From a virus (lineage: Duplodnaviria > Heunggongvirae > Uroviricota > Caudoviricetes), in the IMG/VR virus record IMGVR_UViG_2718218136_000001: a stretch of 64,000 nucleotides of DNA, one strand, 5' to 3'. The position numbers and the translations under genes were made by a program. The stretch's first letter is position 1. Each line of letters starts with the position of its first letter. Of this stretch, positions 3,186 to 56,762 are shown in pieces. The notes under the pieces are model-generated. The model was not told the origin of the DNA. It ran no database searches and saw only the letters and a program-made list of their open reading frames with translations.

Positions 3186-3381
3186 GATTAGGTTATTCGT
3201 GGCATGCTTATAGAGCTTGGGAAACAAGATGGTCCACAATCATTGCTTCAAATCGATTAATAATAAAAAACGCATCGAAGAAATTGGCGTACTGGAGGAT
3301 GCTAATTCTATAGTAAAAGATATAGTGTAATTGAAGAGCGGCAAAAATTTAACGGGCAGCTACAACTGCCCGATATATAAA

Positions 3382-3624
3382 TCAATCCGCATTCAGGAGC
3401 AATGCGTTATCTATGATGATCTGCTCCCATTCTTCGAATGCCCGGTCGCGGACGCCCTGGGGAACGCTGTTAGTTTTGAAATCGACGACCGTACGCCATT
3501 TCCCGTCCGGACGGTACATGCGCAGAGCTTTACTTCCCCCTTCCCTGCGCACCTCAACGTTATGCTTATCAGCAAACTCTTGTAATGCTCGTAGCGTCCC
3601 ATGCTTGTAGTATCGCTTTTTCAA
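3382..3624 (-). CDS. small basic protein (80 aa), TTG start; possibly Lxc/Bof-like C1 co-repressor by position and size
   Basis: ORF track; start TTG overlaps stop of upstream 40-aa ORF (TTGA); identity by recalled size/position only. Confidence 0.4.
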   Translation of the reverse strand: MKKRYYKHGTLRALQEFADKHNVEVRREGGSKALRMYRPDGKWRTVVDFKTNSVPQGVRDRAFEEWEQIIIDNALLLNAD

Positions 3625-3743
3625 GTTTTCTCTCCAGCCTGTGCCAAGGCTTCAACTTCCAAATCGTAAGACTCAAACTCATAGTCCTGGTCGTCAACTT
3701 CTTCAGGCACTGGCAGTAAATGCCAGGCTGTATATCTGACCAT
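3621..3743 (-). CDS. small acidic protein (40 aa: MVRYTAWHLLPVPEEVDDQDYEFESYDLEVEALAQAGEKT)
   Basis: Hand translation of minus strand; stop overlaps TTG start of the downstream gene. Confidence 0.3.
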   Translation of the reverse strand: MVRYTAWHLLPVPEEVDDQDYEFESYDLEVEALAQAGEKT

Positions 3744-3782
3744 TATCAAAACGCCCTGGCTGTAGAGCGTCGCGGCTATGAG

Positions 3783-4053
3783 TGTTAGCGCCGGGCGGTC
3801 ATAACGGTAAATTTGCGAACGTCACGGTCAACGAGACGACCGAAATTACCATAACCGCGCTCCAGTAATAATTTTTTAATTTCCGGCCAGTATGGACCAT
3901 AGCTGCGGTACAGGCGGGGATTTTTCAGTAATCGCCCGCGTAGCCCTGACAGAAGAAATCAACGTATTCGTCTTCTGTCTTTCCTAACAACGCTGTACGG
4001 AGTACCGCCTCAAGATATGTTTTATTCGGTTTTATTGTATCAGATAGTGTGGC
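3783..4053 (-). pseudogene. small ORF (~90 aa) interrupted by one frameshift (MATLSDTIKPNKTYLEAVLRTALLGKTEDEYVDFFCQGYAG / RLLKNPRLYRSYGPYWPEIKKLLLERGYGNFGRLVDRDVRKFTVMTARR)
   Basis: Hand translation of minus strand in two frames; ATG at 4053. Confidence 0.3.
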
Positions 4054-4089
4054 CATATTATGCGACGCCCGGCGAACCGGGCGCTCCTG

Positions 4090-7000
4090 TTATGCGTATT
4101 GTTGGATGACGGCCAGAACGTCCGCCACGTTGTGTTTTGTCTCGATAATCCACCAGTTACCCGGGAAATCGCTGTTCTTCGCCTTCGCTGGCAGCCAGCG
4201 AGCGCCGAATTTCGCCTTGATTGCGTCTTTCGCACGGAAAAGAACGCCTTTCATGCCTGAGGCTTCCTGAAGCCCAAATACCTCGCCAGCGGCGAATTTT
4301 GGTGCGTACATCATCTTCAGGTCGGCGGTGGATACGCGATAATTCAGACCAAGAGACTGAGCTATGCTGGTGGCATCACCCTGTATTGATGATAACTCTT
4401 CTTGTTTCTCGTTTCTGGCGGCAATTTCTTCCTCCGTGATGTTGCCAAGGGCCAGGTTTATCCGATCAGCGTCGGCCTGTTCTCTTCATCGGTGCGCCCG
4501 GCAAGAACCGTGTTAATTCTCTGCAATATCTCCACATGATTCTTGCGCATGCTGAGCAATTCCGGCGTAACCTCGTTAAGATCCACCAGCCCAAGGATGG
4601 CAAGGTCGGAAAACATTGATACCAGGTTGTAGGTCATGCGATAGCTGAGTTGGCCATAGGCTGATGGCAACTGCACCGCATCCATTTGATAGGCATCCAT
4701 AAATTTAGAGCCGTCGTTTACGACATCCGCAATTGCAGGTGTGATTTTCCCTGTGGTGGCGGCCTCCCTGATTGCTGTTACCCATGATTGAGTCAGTGCG
4801 GCGACTGCATGATTCAGATTGGCTTCCCGTTCTGCTGCGATGCGCGCGCTTGCTGAGTCCATTGCCTGCTTGATCTCGGCTTTATTGCTGTAAATGCCAA
4901 TGGTGCCAAACTGTGCTGTGGTGATCTCATAATCTGACGCCCGGAACTCATGGGTACCGAAAATGGCATTGGTGACCTCAAGTTCAGAATCCCCGTTACG
5001 AGTAGCCCCCTGGCTTGTTTTCTCCGGCATTTTTGCGATCGCATCCGCTATTTTCTCCTGAATTACTTCAGGGATAGCGTATCTCCGTATGACGCGATTA
5101 CATCGCCATAATTGGAGCCAAACAATTCAACCAGGAATGTTTCTGCGAACGGATCTGGCGGTTATTCCCTTCCGACATCATACCAAGCACCCATTTTGCA
5201 ATTGACGACTTCAGCGCGCCGTCACGGCGATCCGGGTAAACCGCATGCTTCAGTGGGGCCGTATAGGAACCAACAAAATCAATGCTATAGCCTGACTCTG
5301 TAGTCTGAACGCCGTATGAGTCAGTGATTTTGATCATGCCGCGCTGCTGGAAACGGTAGAAATCGTCACAGGAAATGATGTCGTTAATCCCGGCGATGGA
5401 GACGCCACCACTGATTTTCTGCATAACAGCATCTTCATCGGGAGTTACATCAACCTGTTTATCCAGCGTCTTCACATCCCAGTTACCCGATTTGGTGCCT
5501 TTGAAGGTAAAGATGATCTCCGTCTGCGCGCTGGCTGTCGAAGTCCAGCGACTTAATGCGAACGATATCACCGGCACAATCATAGTATTGGCCTACACGC
5601 CATGAGCGATCGCCGATAACAAGGAACTCATTCGCATGGTTAACCAGATCAGGATCAACATCCAGAATGCCTTTATTTATTGCATCCTCCACCAGCGGGC
5701 GCAGGCGTTTGATATCCGTCGCGGCCTTCTGAGTACGGTTCAATAATTTCTCATAGCGGGAGATGGCCTGAGAGATATTAGCCTTGCGCTGAATGGCGCT
5801 TTTCAACGACGCGCGATACTGTGCTAACAACATACGGTCTGTGTGATGGACGCTACCCCAGCGGGCTTTCCAGTCTGCGTTATCAGCTGCTTTGGCCATT
5901 ACCGCCTGTTTGAATTTGGCGACGTCGGCGGTGGTCTTTTCAAGTTCCGCTTTGCTTCGCTCCAATTCAGCGGTAAGTACCTCCACATCCTCACCAGCTG
6001 CGTGCTGCGCCTTGATGTAGTTCTGAAGGTCGATAGTAGCCTGTTCTTTCTGGCGAGCGCGTTTCGCAGCTTTCGCCTTATCCATTTGAACCTGCATCAT
6101 TACCAGACGTTCGCCGTCATCCTTCGCGGTATACATCTGCATTTCGATCATGTCATTGGCGTCGGCGTTCTCCATTTCTGACTTATCTGAACGGAGGATA
6201 TCGGAGATCCAGCCTGCTTTACGCTTCAGCGTCTTCAGTCGGTATTCATCGAAAGACCCCTTGCCGCAGTAGTAGTGAACGCGAACGCTTGCACGGTTGG
6301 AGCCAACTCGTGCACCGCGACCGTTACGTTGTGCGATACTGGCTGGTGTCCACGGCAACGTCAGGTGGTGGATATCCGTCGTTCCTCGATGCAGGTTGAT
6401 ACCCACCTCTGCCTTTTTGTTGCAGATGATGATCGGAGTCCGGCCCTCCTGGAAGTCGGCTGCAATCTTTTCCAGACCGCCCACGACATTTCATTTTGCT
6501 GCGCGATATAGGCGTCATACAGAGCCATTTGCTCGTTGTATTTCGCTATCTGTGCATCTGTTGGTTCATCCGGTAGCTCTTTCGGCGGTTTAACCGCTTT
6601 CAGTTTCTTACCGGTTTTACCTGCCTCGGCAACCGTCTGAGCATTCAGGATCCCCACCTTTGAAGGTTCAAGGTTTAGAGCATTGCAGATAATGCGCTTG
6701 AGCTTCTGGTGCTGCGTTTTTTCATCGGTGAAGATGATTTGCTTACCTTCCGGGAAAAACTCCTTCAGCGTCGCGATCAGCTTCGCGTATTTCGGCGTAA
6801 CGGGGTGAGTTACGGTCAGTTCGTCAATGCCAAACCTGGCCAGGCGCTTATTCACTTCCTGCTCGAACGCTTCCGGAACCTGCAACTGAATAAACTCGCC
6901 CTTATCTATCAGGGAGTATTGCGATTGCTGCGTGATTGAATCATCACTGTCGTCGTCTTCGCTGGTGGCTTGTTTAGGCAAACTGTCCGCAAAGCTGCTG

Positions 7001-10000
7001 CACCGCATCGGCGTACTCCGGCAGGAAACGATAGGTGATCCGGCGATAGTACAGGTCCATGTCAGTACATACGCGGTCCATATCCCTGATTATTGAGAAG
7101 ATCGGACGGGCTTTCTCGTGCTCAATCACGCCGTCTTCATTGACCGAGGTCGTTACGCCATTGTTGGCTTTGGCCGCCGCTTCCGCCTGCTGACGCAATT
7201 CTTCATACGCCGCCAGTTGTTCTTCAGTAAGTGGTGCATCCTGCTGGTGTTCGTCCAGCTCCGGGATCTCCACGGTATCCTTAACGTCTTCCGCCGTTTT
7301 AAGCGTTACCCAGCGATGGAATATACCGCGCAGCGCATCAAGGTTTTCAAAGCCCACCAGCGCCATTTTCTTCAACTTCACCGCTAATTTTCTGTACCGT
7401 TTCCAGCCTGGTCTTGCCGAAGAATTTAACGAAGTCATCAGGACCGTAGATCCCCATGTTCTGCAGTATTCCTTCGGCAAACATGAGAAAGCATGTTGTA
7501 TGCATCGATCGGGGTGTTAACGACTGGCGTTGCAGTCAGGAGAACCGGCCCGCGCCCGCCATTCTTTTTCATCAGGTACGCGTTTTTAATTGCCATATCT
7601 CGCGCCGATTGCGCCACCGCGCTGGTGGGCAGATAGGCCAGTTGTGACGCTTCGCGACCATTTTTATAGCTATTGCGGTAGTTGTGACCTTCGTCAGCGA
7701 TCACACTATCGAAGCCCATATCCTCAAAGTACGGATACTTCTCTGCTTTTTCGGTGCCGGTATCTGAATACTCCGACAATACCCGGCGACGCGCGGCCTC
7801 TTTGCGGTGGGAGTCGGAGTCCATTGCGCTGGCTACGCGTCCGGCGGCAACGAAGTCATAAAGCATATCCTGTGCATGCTCATCTACGGTGTCATCACGT
7901 AGCGGAATGCGGGCGTATTGTTTTTGGTAAACACGACTGCACGGTAATTTGAGTGCGGATCGCGTTCATCCGCGCCGTGATAGTGGCTTCATCTGCCAGC
8001 TTAAGAGCATCGCGCATAACTGGAGTGCCATCAGTACCAAGAACAGGTTTACCGTTCTCATCGAGCACCGGCACCTGGCGAATCTGATCACCATCCATCA
8101 GCACATCAAGACCGACGAACAGGTAGTTACTGAATGCCTCTTCACTCAGGAATTCTTTTGCTTCGTAATACCAGTTTTCCAGCACTGATTTAGGCACTAC
8201 ATACGCAGTACGGGTGGAGCGACCGTTCTCATAGTTGAACGCCTCAAGCGCCAGCGCGGTCGTGGTTTTACCCAGCCCGGTGCCGAAGCCCAGGATCCGC
8301 GCCCATCTTCGGACAGTCGGCGCACCTCGCTATTCTGGTAATCAAATGGCTGGCGCTTACCGCTTAATCCCTTCAACCCAAGCGGATCGCCAGAGTGTTC
8401 ATACGGGATATTGCTATTGAACACATCGTTGTATTTGGCAACCAGCTCATCGTAGCGATCGTGCGTCTTGATCCACTTATTGAACTGGTCCTCAAGCAGT
8501 GCCATCTGCTCGCGGTAGCCGTTCGCCGTCGCGCTATCTTTGCCACCGATACGCGCACCATTGAGATACTTTTCCAGCTGTGCCGGGAACCCGGTCGCGT
8601 TTTCACCTGATTTACGGTCCCACTGTAGCGGATTCTCGCCTGTTTCTTTATCCTTGCGCTGGACGACACCGTATCGGTGCCCGACGAACAGACCATCACC
8701 ACCGTGATAGGTGTCAGAAACCATTTCGTCGCCTTCCAGCTGCACTGACTGCACATAGCGCAGATCCGGATAGCCGTTTTCCTGCAAAAACTCCAGAATG
8801 ACGGAACGGTCGAACCAACGGCTATTGAGCTTAAACCGGATATTCTCTGCTGGCGTCTTGATGCGCTTCTCTTCGATCGCTGCCAGCTGATTAAGGACGT
8901 TGTTCTTTACTGGACCGTCGGGGAGCGTGGCGAGGAATTCCTGTTTTGGAGCCACTATCTCGTTAATGTCGCCGCTGGTGGCGCGGGCGAACGGAACAAT
9001 CCCGCCATACGGTGAAACCGCAATACCAGGAGTGCTGGCCAATAAATTAAGCAACTCTTCATCACTGGCTGGCAATTCGCCGGTAAACGCAAGGCGGAAA
9101 TCATCGAGCTGGATTGGATCGCGGGTAAGATCGCTATAGAGATAACGCAGGGTGTCCTGATAGCTGGTGGAGTCATAACTGGCGCTGGAATCATGCGTAA
9201 CCAGCTTTCCTGTCAGCTCGTCAGAAATAGTGCCATCCAGCTTAATTGCACCACGGAAAGCAACCAGGCGCGCGCACCGCTTCCCGATAATTAGCTATCG
9301 GACCGCGACCAGGGTTACCAAAACGGTCAATCTCTGCCTGCAAACGGGATACCAGAGAAAGGCGCTGCTGTTCGATTTGTTCAGCACTATGCCCGGCGGC
9401 CTTCATATCCTGATATTCAATTAACATCCGGCCAATCATCGCCCCACGATACAAGCGTTCACGGTATTTTTCAGGCTGGCTGTTAATCCAGTCCACCAGC
9501 GGCACCATATCGTCGCTGATTGATGTGGTGTACTTATCGCGGACATTTGCCATCTGGGTAAATGTCATACCGAGACGGCCTTCTGTTGTAGTCAGGTTAC
9601 GCTGAAGAGCCTCCCAGCTATCCGCGCCATAACTGGCAGCATCAATTTTAAGTTCCTTCCCGGCATCAGCTTCAATCCAGCGACCACCAGCATATTTTGC
9701 CATACGCCATTAATCAGGCGCATTTCCCCTTCACCAACAACGTCTGCGGTCAGTGACGGTTCAGCCATATCGAGCAAAGACCAGTCGATACGGCTTTCGA
9801 AACGATGAATCAGCTTCGCTTTAAGAGCCTGGTTATCAATCTGACCGTCGGCACGAACCTCAATACGCCCCTGGAAGCCCTTTTCCTGGGTGCCATGAAC
9901 AAACCGGCGGCCATCCTTTTCAAACCACTTGCCAGAAATAAACGTTGGCCAAAGCACATTTGCTGATTCAAGAGTGCTTTCATCCACCAGGGAGATTTTC

Positions 10001-10842
10001 TCAGCCATCTCTGCCGGATGTTTGCGCATCAGCACCACATCAACGATTGTACTGGTCCCGTTTGCGTCAAAAGTACCGGTAGGCAAGCGGTGAGCGCCAA
10101 GAAATTCAGCTTTACGGGATAGGCGCAGGCGTAACCGCTTCATGTTTGAACCTGAAACAATGGACGGCGGCACAATCACACACATGAATCCGCCAGGCTT
10201 TATCTTGTCCAGCATGCGGAGCATGAAGTAAGAACCCATGTCCGTTTCTTCTGCGTAAGGCTTATCGATGTTGCGTGTGTTATCACGACCACCGAACGGA
10301 ACGTTACCCACAACATGGTCGAATGAATCGTTAGGCGTGCTTACAGCCAGCTGTTCGAACGGGGAAATCTGTACGCTGTCTTCCGGGTGTAACAGCTGGT
10401 TTATACGACCGGAAACACTGCTGATCTCAGTCGCGGTCATCACCGTACCAACCGGTTTTGTCTCATTAAAAACGCCGGTGCCCGCCGATGGTTCCAGAGT
10501 GTTACCTACGTCCGCGCCGTAGAGCTTCATGATCTCCCAGACACCTTCAGCGATCGGCTTTGGTGTGTAATATTCGGAGACGGACCCGCCAATGCCGCCT
10601 TCACCGGTGTACCCAGCCAGGATCTGGCGCTGTTCATCTGTCAGTGTCGCGCCGTCCACCAGCGAATTAAGCAAATCTATCGCCTTCTGATTCGCCTCCC
10701 GGCGCAGTCGGTCATAGCTTTTGCCTTCCACCTTTTCCACGCCGTATTTAATCGGCGCTCGGTGAGATGTTATTGCCCTAATGTATTTTAATATTTCGCT
10801 GACACTTGAACAGCGAAACACCCCCATAGATAGCTTGTTCAT
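4090..10842 (-). pseudogene. darB: DarB-like giant N6-adenine methyltransferase + SF2/SNF2-type helicase fusion (~2250 codons), fragmented into at least 11 ORF pieces
   Basis: Collinear motifs on minus strand: MTase EPSAGTGVF and VVGNVPFG (9592..10842 piece); Walker A GFGTGLGKTTT (~8262-8290, hand-translated between listed ORFs); DEGH and LLTATPVVNTP (7438..7866); helicase motif VI QRNGRGAR (5483..6484); total span ~6753 nt. Confidence 0.7.
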
Positions 10843-13509
<2,667 letters not shown>

Positions 13510-37887: not shown

Positions 37888-38010
37888 TACAATCGTTGCG
37901 GGTGCTTGAGGCTATCTGCTTCAGGCATTACCCGAAAAGCAGATAGAAGAAAGCCCCAGATAACATTACGCGTCCTGCAAGACGCTTAACATTAATCTGA
38001 GGCCATATCT

Positions 38011-38217
38011 ATGCTTAGCATACGTAGATTAGCCTCTTACCGACCAAAAGGTCAAGGAGAAGCAGGCTATGAAGCAGCAAAAAGCGATGTTAATCGCTCT
38101 GATCGTCATCTGTTTAACCGTCATTGTGACGGCACTGGTAACGAGGAAAGACCTCTGCGAGGTACGAATCCGAACCGGCCAGACGGAGGTCACTGTCTTC
38201 ACAGCCTACGAATCTGA
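38011..38217 (+). CDS. Mok-like overlapping reading frame (68 aa)
   Basis: Overlaps hok in another frame and ends 7 nt before hok stop. Confidence 0.4.
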   Translation: MLSIRRLASYRPKGQGEAGYEAAKSDVNRSDRHLFNRHCDGTGNEERPLRGTNPNRPDGGHCLHSLRI

Positions 38218-38224
38218 AAGGTAA
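38069..38224 (+). CDS. hok: Hok/Gef-family type I toxin (51 aa: MKQQKAMLIALIVICLTVIVTALVTRKDLCEVRIRTGQTEVTVFTAYESER)
   Basis: Hand translation; conserved LTRK.LCE.R...TEV..F.AYES Hok signature; below 60-aa ORF-track cutoff. Confidence 0.8.
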   Translation: MKQQKAMLIALIVICLTVIVTALVTRKDLCEVRIRTGQTEVTVFTAYESER

Positions 38225-49865: not shown

Positions 49866-49882
49866 ATTGCTCTAATAAATAT
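49866..49882. promoter_or_regulatory. C1 operator (ATTGCTCTAATAAATaT, 16/17) upstream of uhr-hrdC-dmt operon
   Basis: Read directly. Confidence 0.55.
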
Positions 49883-50238: not shown

Positions 50239-51136
50239 GCACTGGAAAAATATTACTATTTATAAACTTTCTCGTGAGGCGGATCTGACCGACTTAGAAG
50301 ATAAAAAGAAAATGATCCTTTTCACGCCATGCGGTAGTCAGGATATGGCCAAGTTCGGTTTTGTATCGCCATTTGGTGATAATTCCGAAGTTATCGCTAT
50401 GCATGGAAATGGTTTTATCCTTGTTGAAGCAAAGCGCGAAACAAAAATTCTTCCCCCGCCGGTTATCCAGCGAGCTATTCAAGAAAAAATTGAAAAACTT
50501 GAGCAAGAACAAGCGCGTAAACTGAAGAAAACAGAGAAGGACTCCCTGAAAGACGAAGTTCTGCATTCTCTTCTGCCACGGGCTTTTTCAAAGTTTTCTG
50601 TTATCCAGGCGATCTACGACGGTTCAACTAAACGTATCTATATCAATGCCAGCGCGCGGCAGGCAGAGGATATGCTCGCGCTTATGCGTAAGTCTCTGGG
50701 TTCTCTTCCTGTTGTGCCACTAAGTGTTGAAAATCCCATTGAGTTAACGCTGACCGACTGGGTACGTGATGCTAGTGCTCCACAGGGATTTCAAATGGGG
50801 GATGCGGCAGAACTTAAGGCAGTGCTTGAGGATGGCGGTATCGCCCGAGTGAAAAAGCAGGATTTGGGAAGCGATGAAATTTCCACACACCTGGAAGCTG
50901 GCAAGCTCGTCACTAAGTTGGCACTCGACTGGCAGAACCGCATTAAATTTACACTGGACCATAACTTCAGCATTACCAGCGTCAATTTTGCGGATGAATT
51001 GCTTGAGCAGAACTCTGATATTGATAGTGAAGATGTTGCGCAGCGACTGGACGCAGATTTCTTCCTATTGACCAGTGAAATTTCGTGCCTGGTTGATGCT
51101 CTGGTAAATGCCCTTGGTGGAGAGGCTAAGCAGTGA
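50231..51136 (+). CDS. hrdC: RdgC-family recombination-associated protein (HrdC-like)
   Basis: Close resemblance to RdgC throughout ([44 protein letters not shown]). Confidence 0.8.
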
Positions 51137-54100
51137 AAGAGCTGTGCTATGGATCTGTTTGCAGTGGAATTGAAGCCGCGAGTATTGCCTGGGAACCGTT
51201 GGGTATGCGTCCGGTTTGGTTTGCTGAAATCGAGCCTTTTCCATCGGCCGTTCTTGCGCTCCGCTGGCCCCATGTCGCCAACCTTGGCGACATGACAAAA
51301 CTTGCCAAAAAAGTCTTGGCTGGGGAAATCGAATCCCCTGACGTGCTCGTCGGGGGAACACCATGTTTTACCGCGGGGCATATGGTTCTTTGTAAAAATG
51401 GTTATAAACCAATAGAAGATGTTTGCCCTGGCGATTACGTAGTCAGTCATCTCGGGCGGTTACAACAAGTAAAAAGAGTTGGTTCAAAAATAGCTAATAC
51501 GGGGTTACTTAATGCCGTTGGGCAGCCTTTAGGTATAAGAACAACCAATGACCATCCCTTCCTGGCTGTTCGGTGGAAAGCCCAAAACACCCGGAAAAAT
51601 GGCACATATTTTAAGAGAGAGTTGTTGTCTGAACCGGAATGGCGAGCAGCATGTGATATGCCGGGATATCAATGGTGCGCTCTAACTAATTTCAATATTG
51701 CATCTCCAGATATTTGTTCTCGGTTCTTGTCTGAAGAACAGGCTATGTATCTTGCGGGCGCTTATGTTGGCGATGGATATATTAGGAGATGGAGAGGTAA
51801 ATCTAAGAAGGCGGTTGTTTTTGGCATAAATTGCCAGAAATTGAGAAAGTTTCATTGCCGCATACCAGAAAACATATTTTCCGTGGCAAGCGAAATCCGA
51901 GGGAGCATCAAAGTAACCTTGAATGATACGTGTTATGCCAATTGGCTTAATGAACATTTTGGCGAGTTAAGCCATGCTAAGCGTATCCCTGCATGGGTGA
52001 TGTCGCATCCATTGCGTCATGTGTTTTTACAAGGCTATCTTGATACTGATGGGACACCAAGTGGTAAAGCGGGATTTAGAATTAATAGTGTTAGTCCTGC
52101 GCTTGCTTGGGGCGTTGCGGGGTTGTCACAGACTTGTGGTTATGTTTCTTCGGTCAGCTTTATTGAAGTTGAGCCCAAAAAAGTGATCGAGGATCGCGTG
52201 GTAAATCAACGGAATTATTATCAGGTAACAATCTGCCCGCAGAAATTGTCACGTAAATCAAGATTGGCTCATGGAATGCTTTTACGAACAGTCAAAGAGT
52301 TTAAATCGGTAGGCCTAGATACTGTATACAACATAGAAGTCGAAGGTGATCATTCCTATATCCTCAATGGTGCGGTGGTCCATAACTGTCAGGCATTCAG
52401 TATCGCGGGCTTACGTGGTGGGCTTGATGATGAACGCGGCGCGCTAACTTTGAAGTATGTGGAGCTTGCAAATGCAATTGACGACAAACGGTCTGAGTCC
52501 TTCCTCAAACCGACAGTTATCGTCTGGGAAAATGTCCCAGGAGTCCTGTCATCGGCAGATAACGCCTTCGGATGTTTCCTTGCCGGATTGGCTGGAGAAG
52601 ATGCGCCATTTGAACCAGGTGATCGACCTGAATCAGGAAAAAGTAACGCGTTCTGGCGGTGGGATGGCAAAACCGGTTGCCATGCTCCAAAGTGGCCGCA
52701 GTGTGGTTGTATTTATGGACCGCAGCGAAAGGTGGCCTGGAGAATCCTTGATGCCCAATACTTCGGAGTGGCACAACGACGCCGACGCGTGTTTGTTGTC
52801 GCAAGTGCTCGAACAGACCTCGATCCCGCAACGGTACTTTTTGAGTTCGAAGGCGTGCGTCGGAATATTGCGCCGAGCCGAAAAAAGAAGGAAATCGCTT
52901 CCGCCATTATTGCAAATGGCGCTGCAATCAGTGGCGAAAGCCTAAATCCATGCCTACACGCTGACATGCCACCCGGTATGAAATCGACGAAAGCCGTAAA
53001 CGCTTTCAGGATGGCAGCATTTGGGGAATATATTGACGATGAAACCGCATCGACAGTAAAGGCAAGAGATTTTAAAGATGCCACTGACCTTGCCGTTTTT
53101 AGCAGCACAGGAGCAGGTTTTTGGTCAGAAGGGCATGGTACATTGCGGGCACGTGAGCAAGAAAGCCATGAGCATCTTGTTACATTGGTTTTTCCTGAGC
53201 GTATGAGCGGTACACAACATGCTGAAACTAAGAATACTTCACCATCTCTAATGGCTAAAAATCCAACAGCTGTTTGCTATGAAGTAAGAAACGCAGAAGT
53301 AGCTGTCCGCCGTCTTACCCCTGTCGAATGTGAAAGGCTGCAAGGTTTTCCTGATGGGCATACGTTGATCCCGACGGAAAAGCGTAAAAAAGTTAATTCA
53401 GATGAACTGGCATATCTTCGCAATCACTATCCAGATTTAAGCGAAGAAGAGGCCGCGATGCTTGCAGCTGACGGACCGCGTTACAAAGCGATCGGCAATA
53501 GTATGGCAATACCAGTAATGCGCTGGATTGGCGATCGGATTACTAAGGCCGTATGTCGGCAGAAAGAAGGAAGTGAAACAAAAGAGCGAAAAGTTAAACC
53601 AGCGGCAGAATTCGAACGGTCCATATTCAAATGGGCTGGTGGAAAATTTGGTGTTCTGGAACAAATCTTTCGCTATTTGCCAGAAGGGAAGCGCCTGATC
53701 GAACCTTTTGTCGGTGGCGGAGCTGTCTTCACGAATGCCGGATACCAGGAAAATCTGCTAAATGATGTGAATGCTGACCTGATTAACTTTTACAAGACTC
53801 TGCAACGCGAGGCGCATTCACTTATCACACTGGCGCATCGTTTCTTCCAGGACTACAACACACAGGAAGGATACCTGGCAGTACGGAATGCGTTTAACAA
53901 ACAAGTCTATGATGATTTACATCGCGCAGCGGCGTTTTTGTTCCTGAACCGACATTGTTTTAACGGATTGACGCGTTACAACCAGGCCGGTGAGTTCAAT
54001 GTCGGTTATGGGAAGTATAAAACTCCGTATTTCCCATTACAGGAGATGGAAGCCTTCCTCGGTGCGGAAGGGCGGTCTGAGTTTGTATGCGGTGATTTTG

Positions 54101-54420
54101 CAGCGGTGATTGAAGCTGCCGGAGAAGGAGATGTCATCTTTTGCGATCCGCCGTATGAACCGCTTCCAAATACAGAGGGATTCACGAACTATTCCGGTCA
54201 TGACTTTAAGTTTGAAGAGCAAAAACGCCTGGTGTCTCTGTTGACGGATGCTCATCGCCGAGGTGCAAAGGTTCTCATTACTAACAGTGGCGCGCCAAAC
54301 ATCAGAGAGCTTTATCATGACAATGGCTTCAGAGTGGAACCTCTTTTTGCCAGACGTTCTGTGTCTTGTAAGGGGGACACTCGAGGTGTTGCTCATGACG
54401 CCTTAGGTATATTGCTCTAA
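51133..54420 (+). CDS. dmt: bifunctional DNA methyltransferase Dmt (N-terminal C5-cytosine MTase + C-terminal Dam-like N6-adenine MTase), intein-containing precursor (1095 aa)
   Basis: C5 motifs I (SVCSGIEAA), IV split GGTP|C..intein..|[10 protein letters not shown] (VWENVPG), VIII (QRRRRVFVV), IX-X ([26 protein letters not shown]); Dam motifs [21 protein letters not shown]; GTG start overlaps hrdC stop. Confidence 0.85.
51364..52386 (+). mobile_element. intein (341 aa) with LAGLIDADG homing-endonuclease domain inserted at catalytic Cys of C5-MTase motif IV
   Basis: Begins CFTAGHMVL, block [18 protein letters not shown] motifs [11 protein letters not shown] and [11 protein letters not shown], ends ...GAVVHN followed by +1 Cys; in frame, exteins rejoin to GGTPCQAFS. 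Confidence 0.8.
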
Positions 54421-54428
54421 TAAATTTA
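54412..54428. promoter_or_regulatory. C1 operator (ATTGCTCTAATAAATTT, 17/17 consensus) overlapping dmt stop
   Basis: Read directly. Confidence 0.6.
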
Positions 54429-54601
54429 TTAGTGTAATATCGTCTCAATGAATCGTGATTTATAGAGCGATTTAGCTGTTAGCCGCGACAGGCGCGGCGG
54501 TAAGCATGGCTGGGCCTAGTCCTCCCAGACAAACCACCGAGTTGCCAGGTTGACCATGCGCCTAAGTGGCAACGCCGAAGTGCGTTACGAGCTTCCAGTT
54601 T

Positions 54602-55092: not shown

Positions 55093-55168
55093 GATGGTGT
55101 AGCTCAGCGGTTAGAGCGGTTGACTGTTAATCAACGGGTCGATGGTTCAAATCCATCCACCATCGCCA
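55093..55168 (+). tRNA. tRNA-Asn (anticodon GUU), CCA encoded
   Basis: Cloverleaf folded by hand: 7-bp acceptor stem, anticodon loop CUGUUAA, T-loop GGTTCAAATCC. Confidence 0.85.
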
Positions 55169-55170
55169 AT

Positions 55171-55246
55171 GCTGGTTTAGCTCAGTTGGTAGAGCGCCTG
55201 CCTTGTAAGCAGGATGTCAGCGGTTCGAGTCCGTTAACCGGCACCA
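55171..55246 (+). tRNA. tRNA-Thr (anticodon UGU), CCA encoded
   Basis: Cloverleaf by hand: anticodon loop CUUGUAA, T-loop GGTTCGAGTCC. Confidence 0.85.
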
Positions 55247-55977
55247 GCACAACAGGTAAGGGTATTTTGCGACGTCGGAGATCGCCGAGCTTGGCAGAGG
55301 GTTCGAATCCCTACGAAGTGCCCTTACCGTTGTGATGAAGTGCAGCTCTTTGAAGCAACCAGAAGATAAGCATCTGGCTTCACAACATAAACCGCAGGAA
55401 CGACCAATAAACGGTAGTCCGTATGGAGAACACCCCGTTGAGGAAGAGGCCTGGCCGGAACCGTAACCGGCACTACAACGTTGAGAACACTGGCGTAACG
55501 GGGTCATATCCCAATCTACGAATAAATGTTGCGTTGCAGCGTGACAACCAGTGTTCTCAACATTGTGGTGAATGCACAGGCTGATGTGCCGCAACTACAG
55601 TAGTGCGCGCTTTGCGGGGCTTGCTATAACCCTGTGTCGGAGTTCAGCACCGATCATCACAGTTTGATTCTCTGGCATGAGCATAACGCTGAAATAAGTC
55701 CAGTCTGGTGCGGCCCGATCACCCGCCGTTAGCTCCACGAAACGGAGCACGTAACAGGTAAGAGCATTCTCCTGTAACGGGTTCATATCCCAATCTACAG
55801 GTCCACCAGGAATGCTCTTTCCGTTGCGGTGAATGCGGCTAAGCGCACGCGGAACAGTTAAAACAATCCTCCTTAATGGTTAAACATTCCGGCGTTAATT
55901 GTTAACTGGTTAACGTCACCGGGAGGCACTCGGCACCGCAATCTAATAAATATGTCACTTTTATTGAGGGATAACCA

Positions 55978-56412
55978 ATGTTCGGTAAATTGTTCGGCAA
56001 GAAAGTCGCTTCTGCAAAAGTAGAGCTGAAAAAAGTTGAGAATCGAGATCTGATGGAGGCCATCATCGGTGGCTGTTTGTTGGTATCTGCCGCTGATGGT
56101 GAAATCGAAAAAGAAGAAACAGCGAAACTTGATCAGCTTGTCCGCTCTAATCCGCGTCTTAGTCATTTTGGTAACGAAATTACTGCAACAATTACCCGCT
56201 TTACCGAGCAACTGGAAGCTGGCTTCCGTGTTGGTCGCATGAATATCCTTCGCGAAATTGAAGATATCAAAAACGATCCAAAAGAAGCGGAAGAAGTATT
56301 CGTTAACATGCTGACAATTGCAGAAGCGGACGGTGAAATCGAGCCAGCAGAACACAAAGTACTGGAAGAAGTAGGCCGTCGTTTAGGTCTTCGTGTGGAA
56401 GATTATCTGTAA
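55978..56412 (+). CDS. TerB-like tellurite-resistance-family protein (144 aa)
   Basis: Duplicated SAADGEIEKEE / AEADGEIEPAEH motifs typical of TerB fold. Confidence 0.6.
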   Translation: MFGKLFGKKVASAKVELKKVENRDLMEAIIGGCLLVSAADGEIEKEETAKLDQLVRSNPRLSHFGNEITATITRFTEQLEAGFRVGRMNILREIEDIKNDPKEAEEVFVNMLTIAEADGEIEPAEHKVLEEVGRRLGLRVEDYL

Positions 56413-56576
56413 TGGCAAGCAAGGCACGTATCGCAATCGCCATTGGTTTTCTCTTGCTGTCCGTGCTGGTGGATTTCACCAGCACAATCCTGTCAGTTTT
56501 ATCGGACGGGGCGTTGGTGGCAGTAGCTGTAACATTGGTATGGCCGATATTAAAAACAGCTTCTAAGGATCAGTGA
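56412..56576 (+). CDS. small membrane protein (54 aa), translationally coupled (TAATG)
   Basis: Hand translation MASKARIAIAIGFLLLSVLVDF...; below ORF-track cutoff. Confidence 0.4.
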   Translation: MASKARIAIAIGFLLLSVLVDFTSTILSVLSDGALVAVAVTLVWPILKTASKDQ

Positions 56577-56683
56577 TGGGCTTCTGGGATTTTGCTGACA
56601 AGCATCCAATTGTTCTCGTTGTCATTGCTGGCATAGTTGTAGGCGGTATTGCTGGCGTCATAGAAGCACTCAGGAAACAGTAA
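56576..56683 (+). CDS. small membrane protein (35 aa), translationally coupled (TGATG)
   Basis: Hand translation MGFWDFADKHPIVLVVIAGIVVGGIAGVIEALRKQ. Confidence 0.35.
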   Translation: MGFWDFADKHPIVLVVIAGIVVGGIAGVIEALRKQ

Positions 56684-56686
56684 TCC

Positions 56687-56762
56687 GGCCCTTTAGCTCA
56701 GTGGTTAGAGCTGGCGACTCATAATCGCACGGTCACCGGTTCAAGTCCGGTAGGGGCCACCA
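56687..56762 (+). tRNA. tRNA-Ile2-like (anticodon CAU), CCA encoded
   Basis: Close resemblance to enterobacterial ileX-type tRNA; anticodon loop CUCAUAA. Confidence 0.8.

What the first reader, a model, noticed from the sequence alone, without database searches (positions are those of the whole stretch)
51364..52386. LAGLIDADG intein inserted at the catalytic cysteine of the C5-methyltransferase domain of dmt
C5-MTase motif IV is split: ...DVLVGGTP | CFTAGHMVL ...341 aa... GAVVHN | CQAFSIAGL. The insert has intein blocks A and B (TTNDH), two LAGLIDADG motifs and a terminal His-Asn followed by Cys, all in frame. Removing it leaves a 754-aa protein with an intact GGTPCQAFS motif. The enzyme would only be active after protein splicing, and the +1 Cys is both the splice nucleophile and the methyltransferase catalytic residue. 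I do not know of a described intein in this gene family.
Basis: seen in the sequence. Interest (0 to 1): 0.85.

Follow-up and report, generated by a model that had tools for sequence, protein, structure and literature searches.

The report
Homing intein in phage P1-family dmt
The DNA methyltransferase gene of this P1-like E. coli plasmid-prophage is interrupted, exactly at its catalytic cysteine, by an intact-looking self-splicing protein element (intein) that carries its own homing endonuclease; the element is real, common in P1-like plasmids, unflagged in database records, and an ordinary example of a known kind.

Summary
Codons 78-418 (51364-52386) are a clean in-frame 341-aa insertion relative to the 754-aa Dmt of phage P1, between GGTP and CQAFS.

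The insert has every canonical class-1 intein residue: Cys1, TNDH, two LAGLIDADG motifs with their Asp, and His-Asn followed by Cys+1. It passes the LAGLIDADG_3, Hint_2 and TIGR01443 cut-offs. Its AlphaFold model (pLDDT 92) matches PI-SceI, TliVMA and PI-PfuI inteins (E down to 5e-18). Cys+1 aligns with the catalytic Cys81 of M.HhaI.

The intein occupies about one third of dmt genes: 152 of 480 E. coli genomes and 133 of 503 plasmids. It occurs in three dmt length classes that differ in the central segment (the presumed target-recognition region). Its synonymous diversity is 7-8 times lower than that of the surrounding gene, as expected if it spreads between alleles.

Relatives at 27-53% identity sit at the same Pro-Cys site of C5-methyltransferases in Metarhizobium, Mannheimia, Pseudonocardia and a Deferribacteres MAG.

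One correction: only the C5 half should depend on splicing, because the Dam domain is a separate downstream module.

I found no paper describing it, and records call the gene only 'Dam family methyltransferase'. Splicing and homing are inferred, not shown. It is a new member of a known kind, of moderate interest.

The parts
51133..54420 (+). dmt precursor ORF (1095 aa, GTG start, 121.7 kDa). It is a C5-cytosine methyltransferase module interrupted by the intein, fused to a Dam (N6-adenine) module.
   Evidence: 100% identical to WP_065749882.1 of E. coli O177:H21 plasmid NZ_CP016549.1
51133..51363 (+). N-extein (77 aa). It holds C5-MTase motif I (the region that aligns with M.HhaI FAGLGG) and the first part of motif IV, ...DVLVGGTP.
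51364..52386 (+). Intein, 341 aa, 38.3 kDa, class-1 type with an embedded LAGLIDADG homing endonuclease. GC is 43.0%, against 48-54% in the flanking parts of dmt.
51364..51381 (+). Intein block A (CFTAGH). Cys1 (51364-51366) is the nucleophile of the first splicing step.
   Evidence: sequence; conserved in every homologue that covers it; Pfam Hint_2 covers residues 1-49
51544..51555 (+). Intein block B, T61-N-D-H64 (the TxxH motif).
   Evidence: T and H invariant among homologues of 48-54% identity
51730..52240 (+). LAGLIDADG homing-endonuclease domain (approximate limits, intein residues about 124-292). Motif 1 is LAGAYVGDG at 51751-51777 and motif 2 is LQGYLDTDG at 52027-52053. Both catalytic Asp are present.
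   Evidence: Pfam LAGLIDADG_3; alpha/beta elements in the AF2 model; Foldseek matches to I-DmoI and I-SceI
52324..52386 (+). Intein blocks F ([12 protein letters not shown]) and G (NGAVVHN). The terminal His340-Asn341 lie at 52381-52386.
   Evidence: TIGR01443 above cut-off; phmmer match to the Spl DnaX mini-intein C-terminus; Asn invariant in all 16 aligned sequences
52387..52389 (+). Cys+1, the first C-extein residue. It is the splice-junction nucleophile and also the motif IV (PCQ) catalytic cysteine of the C5-MTase.
   Evidence: invariant in all homologues; aligns with Cys81 of M.HhaI in the spliced sequence
52387..53619 (+). C-extein, C5-MTase part: motif IV CQAFS, ENV, QRRRR, a variable central segment (presumed target-recognition region), and GNSMAIPV.
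53620..54387 (+). C-extein, Dam-type N6-adenine methyltransferase module (aa 830-1085).
   Evidence: TIGR00571 at 246 bits; PF02086
49866..49882 (+). C1 repressor operator Odmt (Op68), overlapping promoter Pdmt of the uhr-hrdC-dmt operon. It implies that the precursor, and hence the endonuclease, is made only when the prophage is derepressed.
   Evidence: one mismatch to the operator consensus, 5 matches in the window against 0.03 expected; region 98% identical to the annotated P1 region

Best explanation
The 341 codons at 51364-52386 are a canonical class-1 intein with an embedded LAGLIDADG homing endonuclease. It is inserted in motif IV of the C5-cytosine methyltransferase module of the P1-family Dmt protein.

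Proposed mechanism (inferred):
- When the prophage is derepressed, the 121.7-kDa precursor is translated.
- Cys1 performs an N-S acyl shift.
- The N-extein is transferred to Cys+1.
- Asn341 cyclises and releases the 38.3-kDa intein.
- An S-N shift joins GGTP to CQAFS, giving the 754-aa (83.5-kDa) Dmt with an intact Pro-Cys catalytic loop.

The same cysteine therefore serves first as splice nucleophile and then as the methyltransferase nucleophile. The Dam module downstream probably does not need splicing.

The freed intein, or the precursor, is predicted to cut intein-less dmt alleles around ...GGGGGAACACCT|TGTCAGGCATTC.... Repair from the occupied allele would then copy the intein in (homing). 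This would explain its spread among P1-like phage-plasmids.
For: Shown by tools:
- Clean presence/absence polymorphism at one codon boundary.
- All catalytic residues are present and conserved in relatives down to 27-30% identity.
- Family models pass their cut-offs.
- The AF2 model has pLDDT 91.9 and pTM 0.89. Its best PDB matches are full-length endonuclease-bearing inteins: PI-SceI, TliVMA, PhoVMA, PI-PfuI and PI-PkoII, E 5e-18 to 1e-9.
- Cys+1 aligns with M.HhaI Cys81.
- Population data: the intein is in 152 E. coli genomes, and the dmt Dam segment is in 480. It is in 133 of 503 plasmids.
- All 153 E. coli records carry a full-length copy at >=99% identity.
- In 21 occupied alleles, every catalytic residue and the 1023-nt length are kept. 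Synonymous diversity is 1.07% in the intein, against 7.5% in the N-extein and 8.4% in the Dam part.
- The intein occurs in three gene-length classes (1013, 1095 and 1148 aa) and with two N-flank types.
- In relatives, the host C5-MTase ORFs are long and keep their motifs: Metarhizobium 850 aa, Deferribacteres MAG 737 aa.
Against: - No experiment: neither splicing nor endonuclease activity has been demonstrated.
- Pfam Intein_splicing is below its cut-off, and Hint_2 passes only marginally (28.5 against 28.4 bits).
- Sequence similarity to solved inteins is weak.
- Within the intein, polymorphic codons are about 1:1 synonymous to amino-acid-changing (17:15). That pattern fits relaxed constraint or very recent origin.
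- P1-like genomes are highly mosaic, so ordinary homologous recombination rather than endonuclease-driven homing could also place one intein in several backgrounds.
- The C5 activity of Dmt is itself only 'perhaps' in the P1 annotation.
Confidence: 0.85

Rival explanations
1. The intein is genuine but no longer splices, or splices poorly. It is tolerated because only the C-terminal Dam module of Dmt matters to the phage, so occupied alleles are in effect C5-null alleles.
For: The Dam module is a separate downstream domain. The P1 record itself says C5 methylation is only 'perhaps'. dmt alleles with damaged C5 parts exist: the P1 laboratory G74W variant, a 292-aa truncated allele, and other short classes. 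The Mannheimia homologue sits in a truncated methyltransferase. The ratio of amino-acid-changing to synonymous polymorphism in the intein is about 1.
Against: All 21 examined copies keep C1, T61, H64, H340, N341 and C+1, and keep their full length. All 153 E. coli records carry a full-length copy at >=99% identity. The same residues are conserved in relatives at 27-53% identity whose exteins are intact. 20 of the 22 newly recovered occupied genes, and the window's own, have uninterrupted ORFs of 1013-1148 aa.
Confidence: 0.1
2. The intein has been recruited as a post-translational switch. Splicing would be conditional (for example redox-sensitive through Cys1 and Cys+1 or other cysteines, or temperature- or DNA-dependent), timing C5 methylation during lytic growth while Dam activity is constitutive.
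For: This is only circumstantial. The insertion is at the catalytic residue. Both junction nucleophiles are cysteines, and the intein holds 10 Cys counted in the printed sequence. Conditional splicing is documented for other inteins (for example RadA, PMC4513877, listed). Expression is confined to derepression by the C1 operator.
Against: About two thirds of dmt genes lack the intein and are otherwise near-identical, so it is not needed for function. The low diversity and patchy distribution fit a selfish element. Nothing in the sequence points to a sensor.
Confidence: 0.04
3. It is not an intein. It would be a native accessory or DNA-binding domain, or an in-frame free-standing endonuclease insertion that stays in the mature protein.
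For: Domesticated LAGLIDADG folds exist: WhiA appears among the weaker Foldseek matches.
Against: A Hint fold surrounds the endonuclease domain, and the best structural matches are whole inteins. The splice-junction residues are exact. The insertion splits the invariant Pro-Cys catalytic dipeptide from its Gln-Ala-Phe-Ser continuation, and the spliced sequence aligns contiguously with M.HhaI. The domain is absent from most orthologues.
Confidence: 0.01

Closest known systems
PI-SceI (S. cerevisiae VMA1 intein) and the archaeal TliVMA, PhoVMA, PI-PfuI and PI-PkoII inteins
   Same: The architecture is the same: a Hint splicing domain split by a two-motif LAGLIDADG homing endonuclease, with Cys1, block B TxxH, and terminal His-Asn followed by Cys+1. 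They are the best structural matches (Foldseek E 4.6e-18 to 1.5e-9, TM 0.50-0.62).
   Different: Sequence identity is only 11-16%. The host proteins differ (V-ATPase, RNR, DNA polymerase). At 341 aa this intein is smaller than those chains (target lengths 361-537). By my recollection PI-SceI has an extra DNA-recognition region; I did not check whether this model has one.
Inteins of actinobacteriophage DNA methylases (DNMT-1 and DNMT-2 of mycobacteriophages, PMC5050341; the actinophage methylase intein of PMC9957025)
   Same: These are phage-borne inteins interrupting a DNA methyltransferase. The PMC9957025 intein also has a LAGLIDADG endonuclease, a patchy distribution and evidence of transfer between divergent methylase alleles, as seen here.
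   Different: Those hosts are N6_N4_Mtase-type enzymes of Actinobacteria phages. Here the host is a C5-cytosine methyltransferase (PF00145) of an enterobacterial phage-plasmid, and the insertion lies at the catalytic Cys of motif IV.
Unnamed inteins at the same Pro-Cys site of C5-methyltransferases in Metarhizobium album, Mannheimia haemolytica, Pseudonocardia, a Deferribacteres MAG and metagenomes (P0007-P0023, L014, L015)
   Same: They have the same insertion point (..PC|F.AG...N|C(Q/T)..), the same architecture, and 27-53% identity over the whole intein. They form one insertion-site family with this intein.
   Different: They sit in different host lineages and different methyltransferase subfamilies. 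Some have a substituted penultimate His (K, A or N), one is a mini-intein without an endonuclease (P0023), and some are in truncated host genes (P0011, P0024). None carries more than an automatic name.
Spl DnaX mini-intein (PDB 7cfv)
   Same: It is the best sequence match among solved structures, over blocks F and G (E 1.3e-3).
   Different: It is a mini-intein without an endonuclease, and the match covers only the last 42 residues.

Membership tests
Intein (class 1, Hint superfamily) | In-frame insertion in a host protein that is absent from close orthologues, with exact boundaries | tested here: met
   One clean 341-aa gap against P1 Dmt. In the combined sample of fetched loci there were 106 empty and 33 occupied sites, all at the same codon boundary.
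Intein (class 1, Hint superfamily) | Nucleophile at residue 1 (Cys/Ser), block B TxxH, terminal (His-)Asn, and Cys/Ser/Thr at +1 | tested here: met
   C1, T61xxH64, H340-N341 and C+1 are present. N and C+1 are invariant in 16 sequences. All are kept in 21 alleles.
Intein (class 1, Hint superfamily) | Hint fold / match to curated intein models | tested here: met
   TIGR01443 scores 30.8 bits against a cut-off of 15.6. Hint_2 scores 28.5 against 28.4, a marginal pass, and Intein_splicing at 22 bits is below its 35.8 cut-off. The AF2 model (pLDDT 91.9) matches PDB inteins at E 5e-18.
Intein (class 1, Hint superfamily) | Protein splicing: excision of the intein with ligation of the exteins | not testable with these tools
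   This needs expression with western blotting or mass spectrometry. Predicted products are 121.7 kDa giving 83.5 + 38.3 kDa.
LAGLIDADG homing endonuclease (two-motif, monomeric) | Two LAGLIDADG motifs, each ending in a catalytic acidic residue, in an alpha-beta-beta-alpha-beta-beta-alpha pseudo-dimer fold | tested here: met
   LAGAYVGD137G and LQGYLDTD229G. Pfam LAGLIDADG_3 scores 35.1 bits against 22.5. Foldseek matches I-DmoI and I-SceI at E about 1e-4 and the endonuclease parts of PI-SceI.
LAGLIDADG homing endonuclease (two-motif, monomeric) | Site-specific cleavage of the empty allele, and homing | tested here: inconclusive
   The evidence is indirect only. About one third of dmt genes are occupied. 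Synonymous diversity is 7-8 times lower in the intein than in the flanks. The intein is present in three length classes of dmt and with two flank types. The -1 codon is CCA in 33 of 33 occupied alleles and CCT in all empty alleles with a P1-like flank. Homologous recombination without cleavage is not excluded.
C5-cytosine DNA methyltransferase (PF00145 / TIGR00675), host protein | Conserved motifs including motif IV Pro-Cys, the catalytic nucleophile | tested here: met
   PF00145 at E 1e-30 and TIGR00675 at 101 bits against 100.65. The spliced sequence aligns GGTPCQAFS with M.HhaI GFPCQAFS, which contains Cys81. The catalytic role of that Cys is established knowledge of the M.HhaI family, not tested here.

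The most novel reading that the evidence does not exclude
This would be a naturally occurring, currently active homing intein of E. coli's own mobilome, sitting in the classic phage P1 family. Its splicing would gate only one of the two activities of a bifunctional methyltransferase, so occupied and empty dmt alleles would differ in when, or whether, phage DNA receives m5C. That would make the intein a conditional regulator of anti-restriction methylation rather than a neutral parasite.
Probability: 0.07. Interest if true: 0.7.

Novelty: new member of a known kind. Interest (0 to 1): 0.38.

Why it matters
- Phage P1 and its plasmid-prophage relatives are among the most used and most sequenced elements of E. 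coli. Even so, about a third of their dmt genes carry a 1-kb selfish element that no record I saw annotates; the gene is called only 'Dam family methyltransferase'.
- Recognising the intein corrects the predicted mature protein: 754 aa rather than 1095 aa.
- It explains the length classes of dmt.
- It gives a convenient native E. coli system for studying intein homing, because occupied and empty alleles, a repressor-controlled promoter and genetic tools are all available.
- It extends the known intein insertion sites to the catalytic Pro-Cys loop of C5-methyltransferases in several phyla.
- It does not change how inteins are understood.

Tried and rejected
- Literature: all ten full-text searches (of which one search failed on a too-short term) combined intein or extein with cytosine methyltransferase, P1-like, DNA methylase, Dmt, bacteriophage P1, Dcm, phage-plasmid or RCS47. 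None returned a paper on an intein in a C5-methyltransferase or in P1 dmt. The hits were purification-tag uses, gene-therapy split inteins, or inteins in other genes.
- Papers not held: the P1 genome paper, the RCS47 paper and the D6 / plasmid-prophage paper could not be read. I cannot exclude a mention there.
- Sequence search of the PDB with the intein gave only weak hits, so I used structure prediction and Foldseek instead.
- The genome scan with the 16-sequence alignment failed for lack of conserved stretches. The 7-sequence alignment worked but, being pattern-limited, returned only 6 loci.
- Exact empty site: no plasmid allele is identical to the precise-excision junction of this window; the best is 97.7%. 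This reflects the CCA/CCT difference at -1 plus a nearby synonymous site. I considered that CCT marks endonuclease-resistant alleles and cannot test it. Co-conversion or inheritance of the donor flank is the simpler reading.
- GC content: the intein is at 43% and its neighbours at 48-54%. This is suggestive of foreign origin but too weak to use as evidence. The GC3 value printed for the Dam segment is out of frame and should be ignored.
Full report
**1. Observation**

The window is part of a P1-like phage-plasmid. At dmt it is 100% identical to E. coli O177:H21 plasmid NZ_CP016549.1 (IncY, 126 kb), with window position 1 corresponding to record position 95.

The ORF at 51133..54420 (+) encodes 1095 aa.

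I aligned the window protein with Dmt of phage RCS47, of a 'P1 del res del mod' isolate, and of the P1 reference (AAQ14041, 754 aa). The 341 residues form one clean gap in the P1 protein, between ...GTP and CQAFS.... Removing them gives 754 aa (83.5 kDa). The intein is 38.3 kDa and the precursor 121.7 kDa.

**2. What the insert is**

Curated models:
- Pfam finds LAGLIDADG_3 (35.1 bits, cut-off 22.5) and Hint_2 (28.5 bits against 28.4, a marginal pass). Intein_splicing falls below its threshold.
- NCBIfam TIGR01443, the intein C-terminal splicing region, passes (30.8 bits against 15.6).

Canonical class-1 residues, all present:
- Cys1.
- Block B T61-N-D-H64.
- LAGLIDADG motifs LAGAYVGD137G and LQGYLDTD229G.
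- Block [13 protein letters not shown].
- Block G VVH340-N341.
- Cys+1.

Structure:
- Sequence similarity to solved inteins is weak: Spl DnaX mini-intein E 1e-3, PI-PkoII E 0.03.
- I therefore predicted the structure from a 16-sequence alignment of homologues, obtaining pLDDT 91.9 and pTM 0.89.
- Foldseek against the PDB returns full-length endonuclease-bearing inteins first: PI-SceI, TliVMA, PhoVMA, PI-PfuI and PI-PkoII (E 4.6e-18 to 1.5e-9).
- Free-standing LAGLIDADG enzymes (I-DmoI, I-SceI) and mini-inteins follow.

This is an intein of the ordinary two-domain kind.

**3. Where it sits**

The host N-terminal module is a C5-cytosine methyltransferase (PF00145 E 1e-30; TIGR00675 above cut-off). 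The C-terminal module is a Dam-type N6-adenine methyltransferase (TIGR00571 246 bits, aa 830-1085).

The in-silico spliced sequence aligns contiguously with M.Hha[13 protein letters not shown] lies on GFPCQAFSISG, so Cys+1 falls on Cys81. Cys81 is the catalytic nucleophile of that enzyme family; this is established knowledge, not tested here.

My qualification is that only the C5 module is split. The Dam module lies entirely in the C-extein and probably folds and acts in the precursor as well (inference).

The operon's C1 operator Odmt is conserved at 49866-49882. Precursor and endonuclease should therefore be made only on derepression.

**4. Distribution**

| Collection | dmt present | Intein present | Source |
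|---|---|---|---|
| Phage records | 18 | RCS47 and vB_EcoM-Ro157c2YLVW (two records each) and the P1 isolate OP279344 | |
| PLSDB plasmids | 503 | 133 (E. coli, E. albertii, E. fergusonii, Salmonella, Shigella); 128 of them >=99% identical | |
| RefSeq complete E. coli genomes | 480 | 152, all full length and >=99% identical | |

About one third of dmt genes are occupied. No record that I saw flags the intein: products are 'dmt', 'DNA methyltransferase' or 'Dam family site-specific DNA-(adenine-N6)-methyltransferase'.

**5. Evidence bearing on mobility**

Length classes. dmt occurs in length classes that differ in a central segment; in the alignment of the 1095-aa and 1013-aa forms this segment spans roughly residues 583-725. 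I take it to be the target-recognition region, which is an inference. The classes are 672, 754, 807 and 862 aa when empty, and 1013, 1095 and 1148 aa when occupied, that is 672, 754 and 807 plus 341.

Diversity. Among 21 occupied alleles with complete ORFs:

| Segment | Nucleotide diversity | Synonymous-codon diversity |
|---|---|---|
| Intein | 0.69% | 1.07% |
| N-extein | 3.9% | 7.5% |
| Dam part | 4.7% | 8.4% |

- The low diversity is therefore not an effect of stronger protein constraint.
- The intein copies share a more recent ancestor than the gene around them.
- Between E. coli and E. albertii plasmids the intein is 99.1-99.5% identical, while the Dam part is about 90% identical.

Integrity. 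All 21 copies keep 1023 nt and all catalytic residues.

Flanking sequence. Every one of the 33 occupied alleles in the combined sample of fetched loci has ...ACACCA immediately upstream. Empty alleles with a P1-like flank have ...AC(A/G)CCT. Only four empty alleles, all with a divergent upstream flank, have CCA.

These patterns are what a homing element with co-conversion of its flank would produce. They do not exclude spread by ordinary homologous recombination in these very mosaic genomes.

**6. Relatives elsewhere**

A protein search with the intein alone returned 25 proteins. Apart from the Escherichia copies, proteins at 29-55% identity from Mannheimia haemolytica, Pseudonocardia, Parvibaculum and metagenomes carry it at the same ...PC|F.AG...N|C(Q/T)... 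position. In nearly all of them the flanking sequence matches PF00145.

A genome scan added two more:
- an 850-aa methyltransferase of Metarhizobium album (50% identity);
- a 737-aa Dcm-type enzyme of a Deferribacteres MAG (27% identity), both at the same site.

P0023 is a mini-intein at the site. The Mannheimia and Rodentibacter copies look decayed.

This is one insertion-site family spread thinly over several phyla. Conservation of the splice residues across it, in otherwise intact host genes, is the best available indirect evidence that these inteins splice.

**7. Comparison with what is known, and novelty**

In architecture and predicted mechanism this is a standard class-1 LAGLIDADG intein, closest in fold to PI-SceI and the VMA inteins.

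Inteins in phage DNA methylases are published, but in N4/N6-type enzymes of actinophages (PMC5050341, PMC9957025).

I found nothing on an intein in a C5-methyltransferase or in P1 dmt in ten full-text searches. Three potentially relevant papers were not held.

I rate it a new member of a known kind. Insertion at a catalytic nucleophile is typical of inteins, so it should not surprise a specialist. What is mildly notable is that it lies unannotated in one of the best-known phage families of E. coli, at high frequency and apparently in the active phase of the homing cycle.

**8. Verdict**

- Confidence that this is a genuine intein with an embedded endonuclease: about 0.95.
- Confidence that it splices to give active 754-aa Dmt and spreads by homing as described: 0.85 for the overall statement.
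- The splicing and homing steps are inferred, not shown.
- Interest: 0.38.

Noticed in passing
L002 (AF234172, P1 reference) about nt 3219-3221, corresponding to window 51352-51354: The sequenced laboratory P1 has TGG (Trp74) where all other alleles have a Gly codon, three residues before the catalytic Cys of motif IV (VLVWGTPC against VLVGGTPC). It is 1 of 106 empty sites sampled. It may impair the C5 module of the reference phage.
   Followed up: partly
window about 52880-53300 (Dmt aa about 583-725); loci L003-L010, L118-L144: dmt occurs in discrete length classes (672, 754, 807 and 862 aa without the intein). In the one pair I aligned (1095 aa against 1013 aa), the difference is a replaced central segment between conserved flanks. 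This looks like swapping of a target-recognition module among P1-like elements.
   Followed up: partly
L003 (OP279344.1, 'Escherichia phage P1 isolate del res del mod'): A laboratory P1 derivative carries the intein. Its hrdC, dmt N-extein and intein are 100% identical to the window, but its central dmt segment differs (1013 aa). Some working 'P1' stocks are therefore not the intein-less reference at this locus.
   Followed up: partly
window 3600-13500: I expected the large darB gene here, from my recollection of the P1 map. There are instead only ORF fragments (Helicase_C at 5486-6484 on the minus strand, N6_Mtase/Eco57I at 9595-10842 on the minus strand, and three unassigned plus-strand ORFs at 10918-13509). 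The plasmid gene table lists no CDS here. The gene may be disrupted or the assembly frameshifted.
   Followed up: partly
P0011 (Mannheimia haemolytica, 439 aa, seen on 578 contigs); P0024 (Rodentibacter pneumotropicus): The Mannheimia homologue of the intein sits in a methyltransferase whose C-extein ends about 20 residues after Cys+1. The Rodentibacter ORF starts inside the last roughly 50 residues of an intein and runs into an intact C-extein. Both look like decaying copies of the same insertion-site family.
   Followed up: no
window 51361-51363 and the same position in 139 alleles: The Pro codon just before the insertion site is CCA in all 33 occupied alleles and CCT in all empty alleles with a P1-like flank. 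Thirty-two empty alleles match the occupied flank's last 12 nt except at this one base. It could be a co-conversion marker or a determinant of endonuclease recognition.
   Followed up: partly
window 7892-7984: ARAGORN calls a 93-nt tRNA-Thr(GGT) here, which Rfam does not support at gathering threshold. It is probably a false positive inside the broken region where I expected darB. The three tRNAs at 55093-56762 are supported by both tools.
   Followed up: no
window 34246-34452, 37900-38224, 54411-54438: Standard P1 regulatory features are present: C4 antisense RNA with its a1/b1 targets, a sok/hokD module, and the bivalent C1 operator Oban overlapping the dmt stop codon.
   Followed up: no
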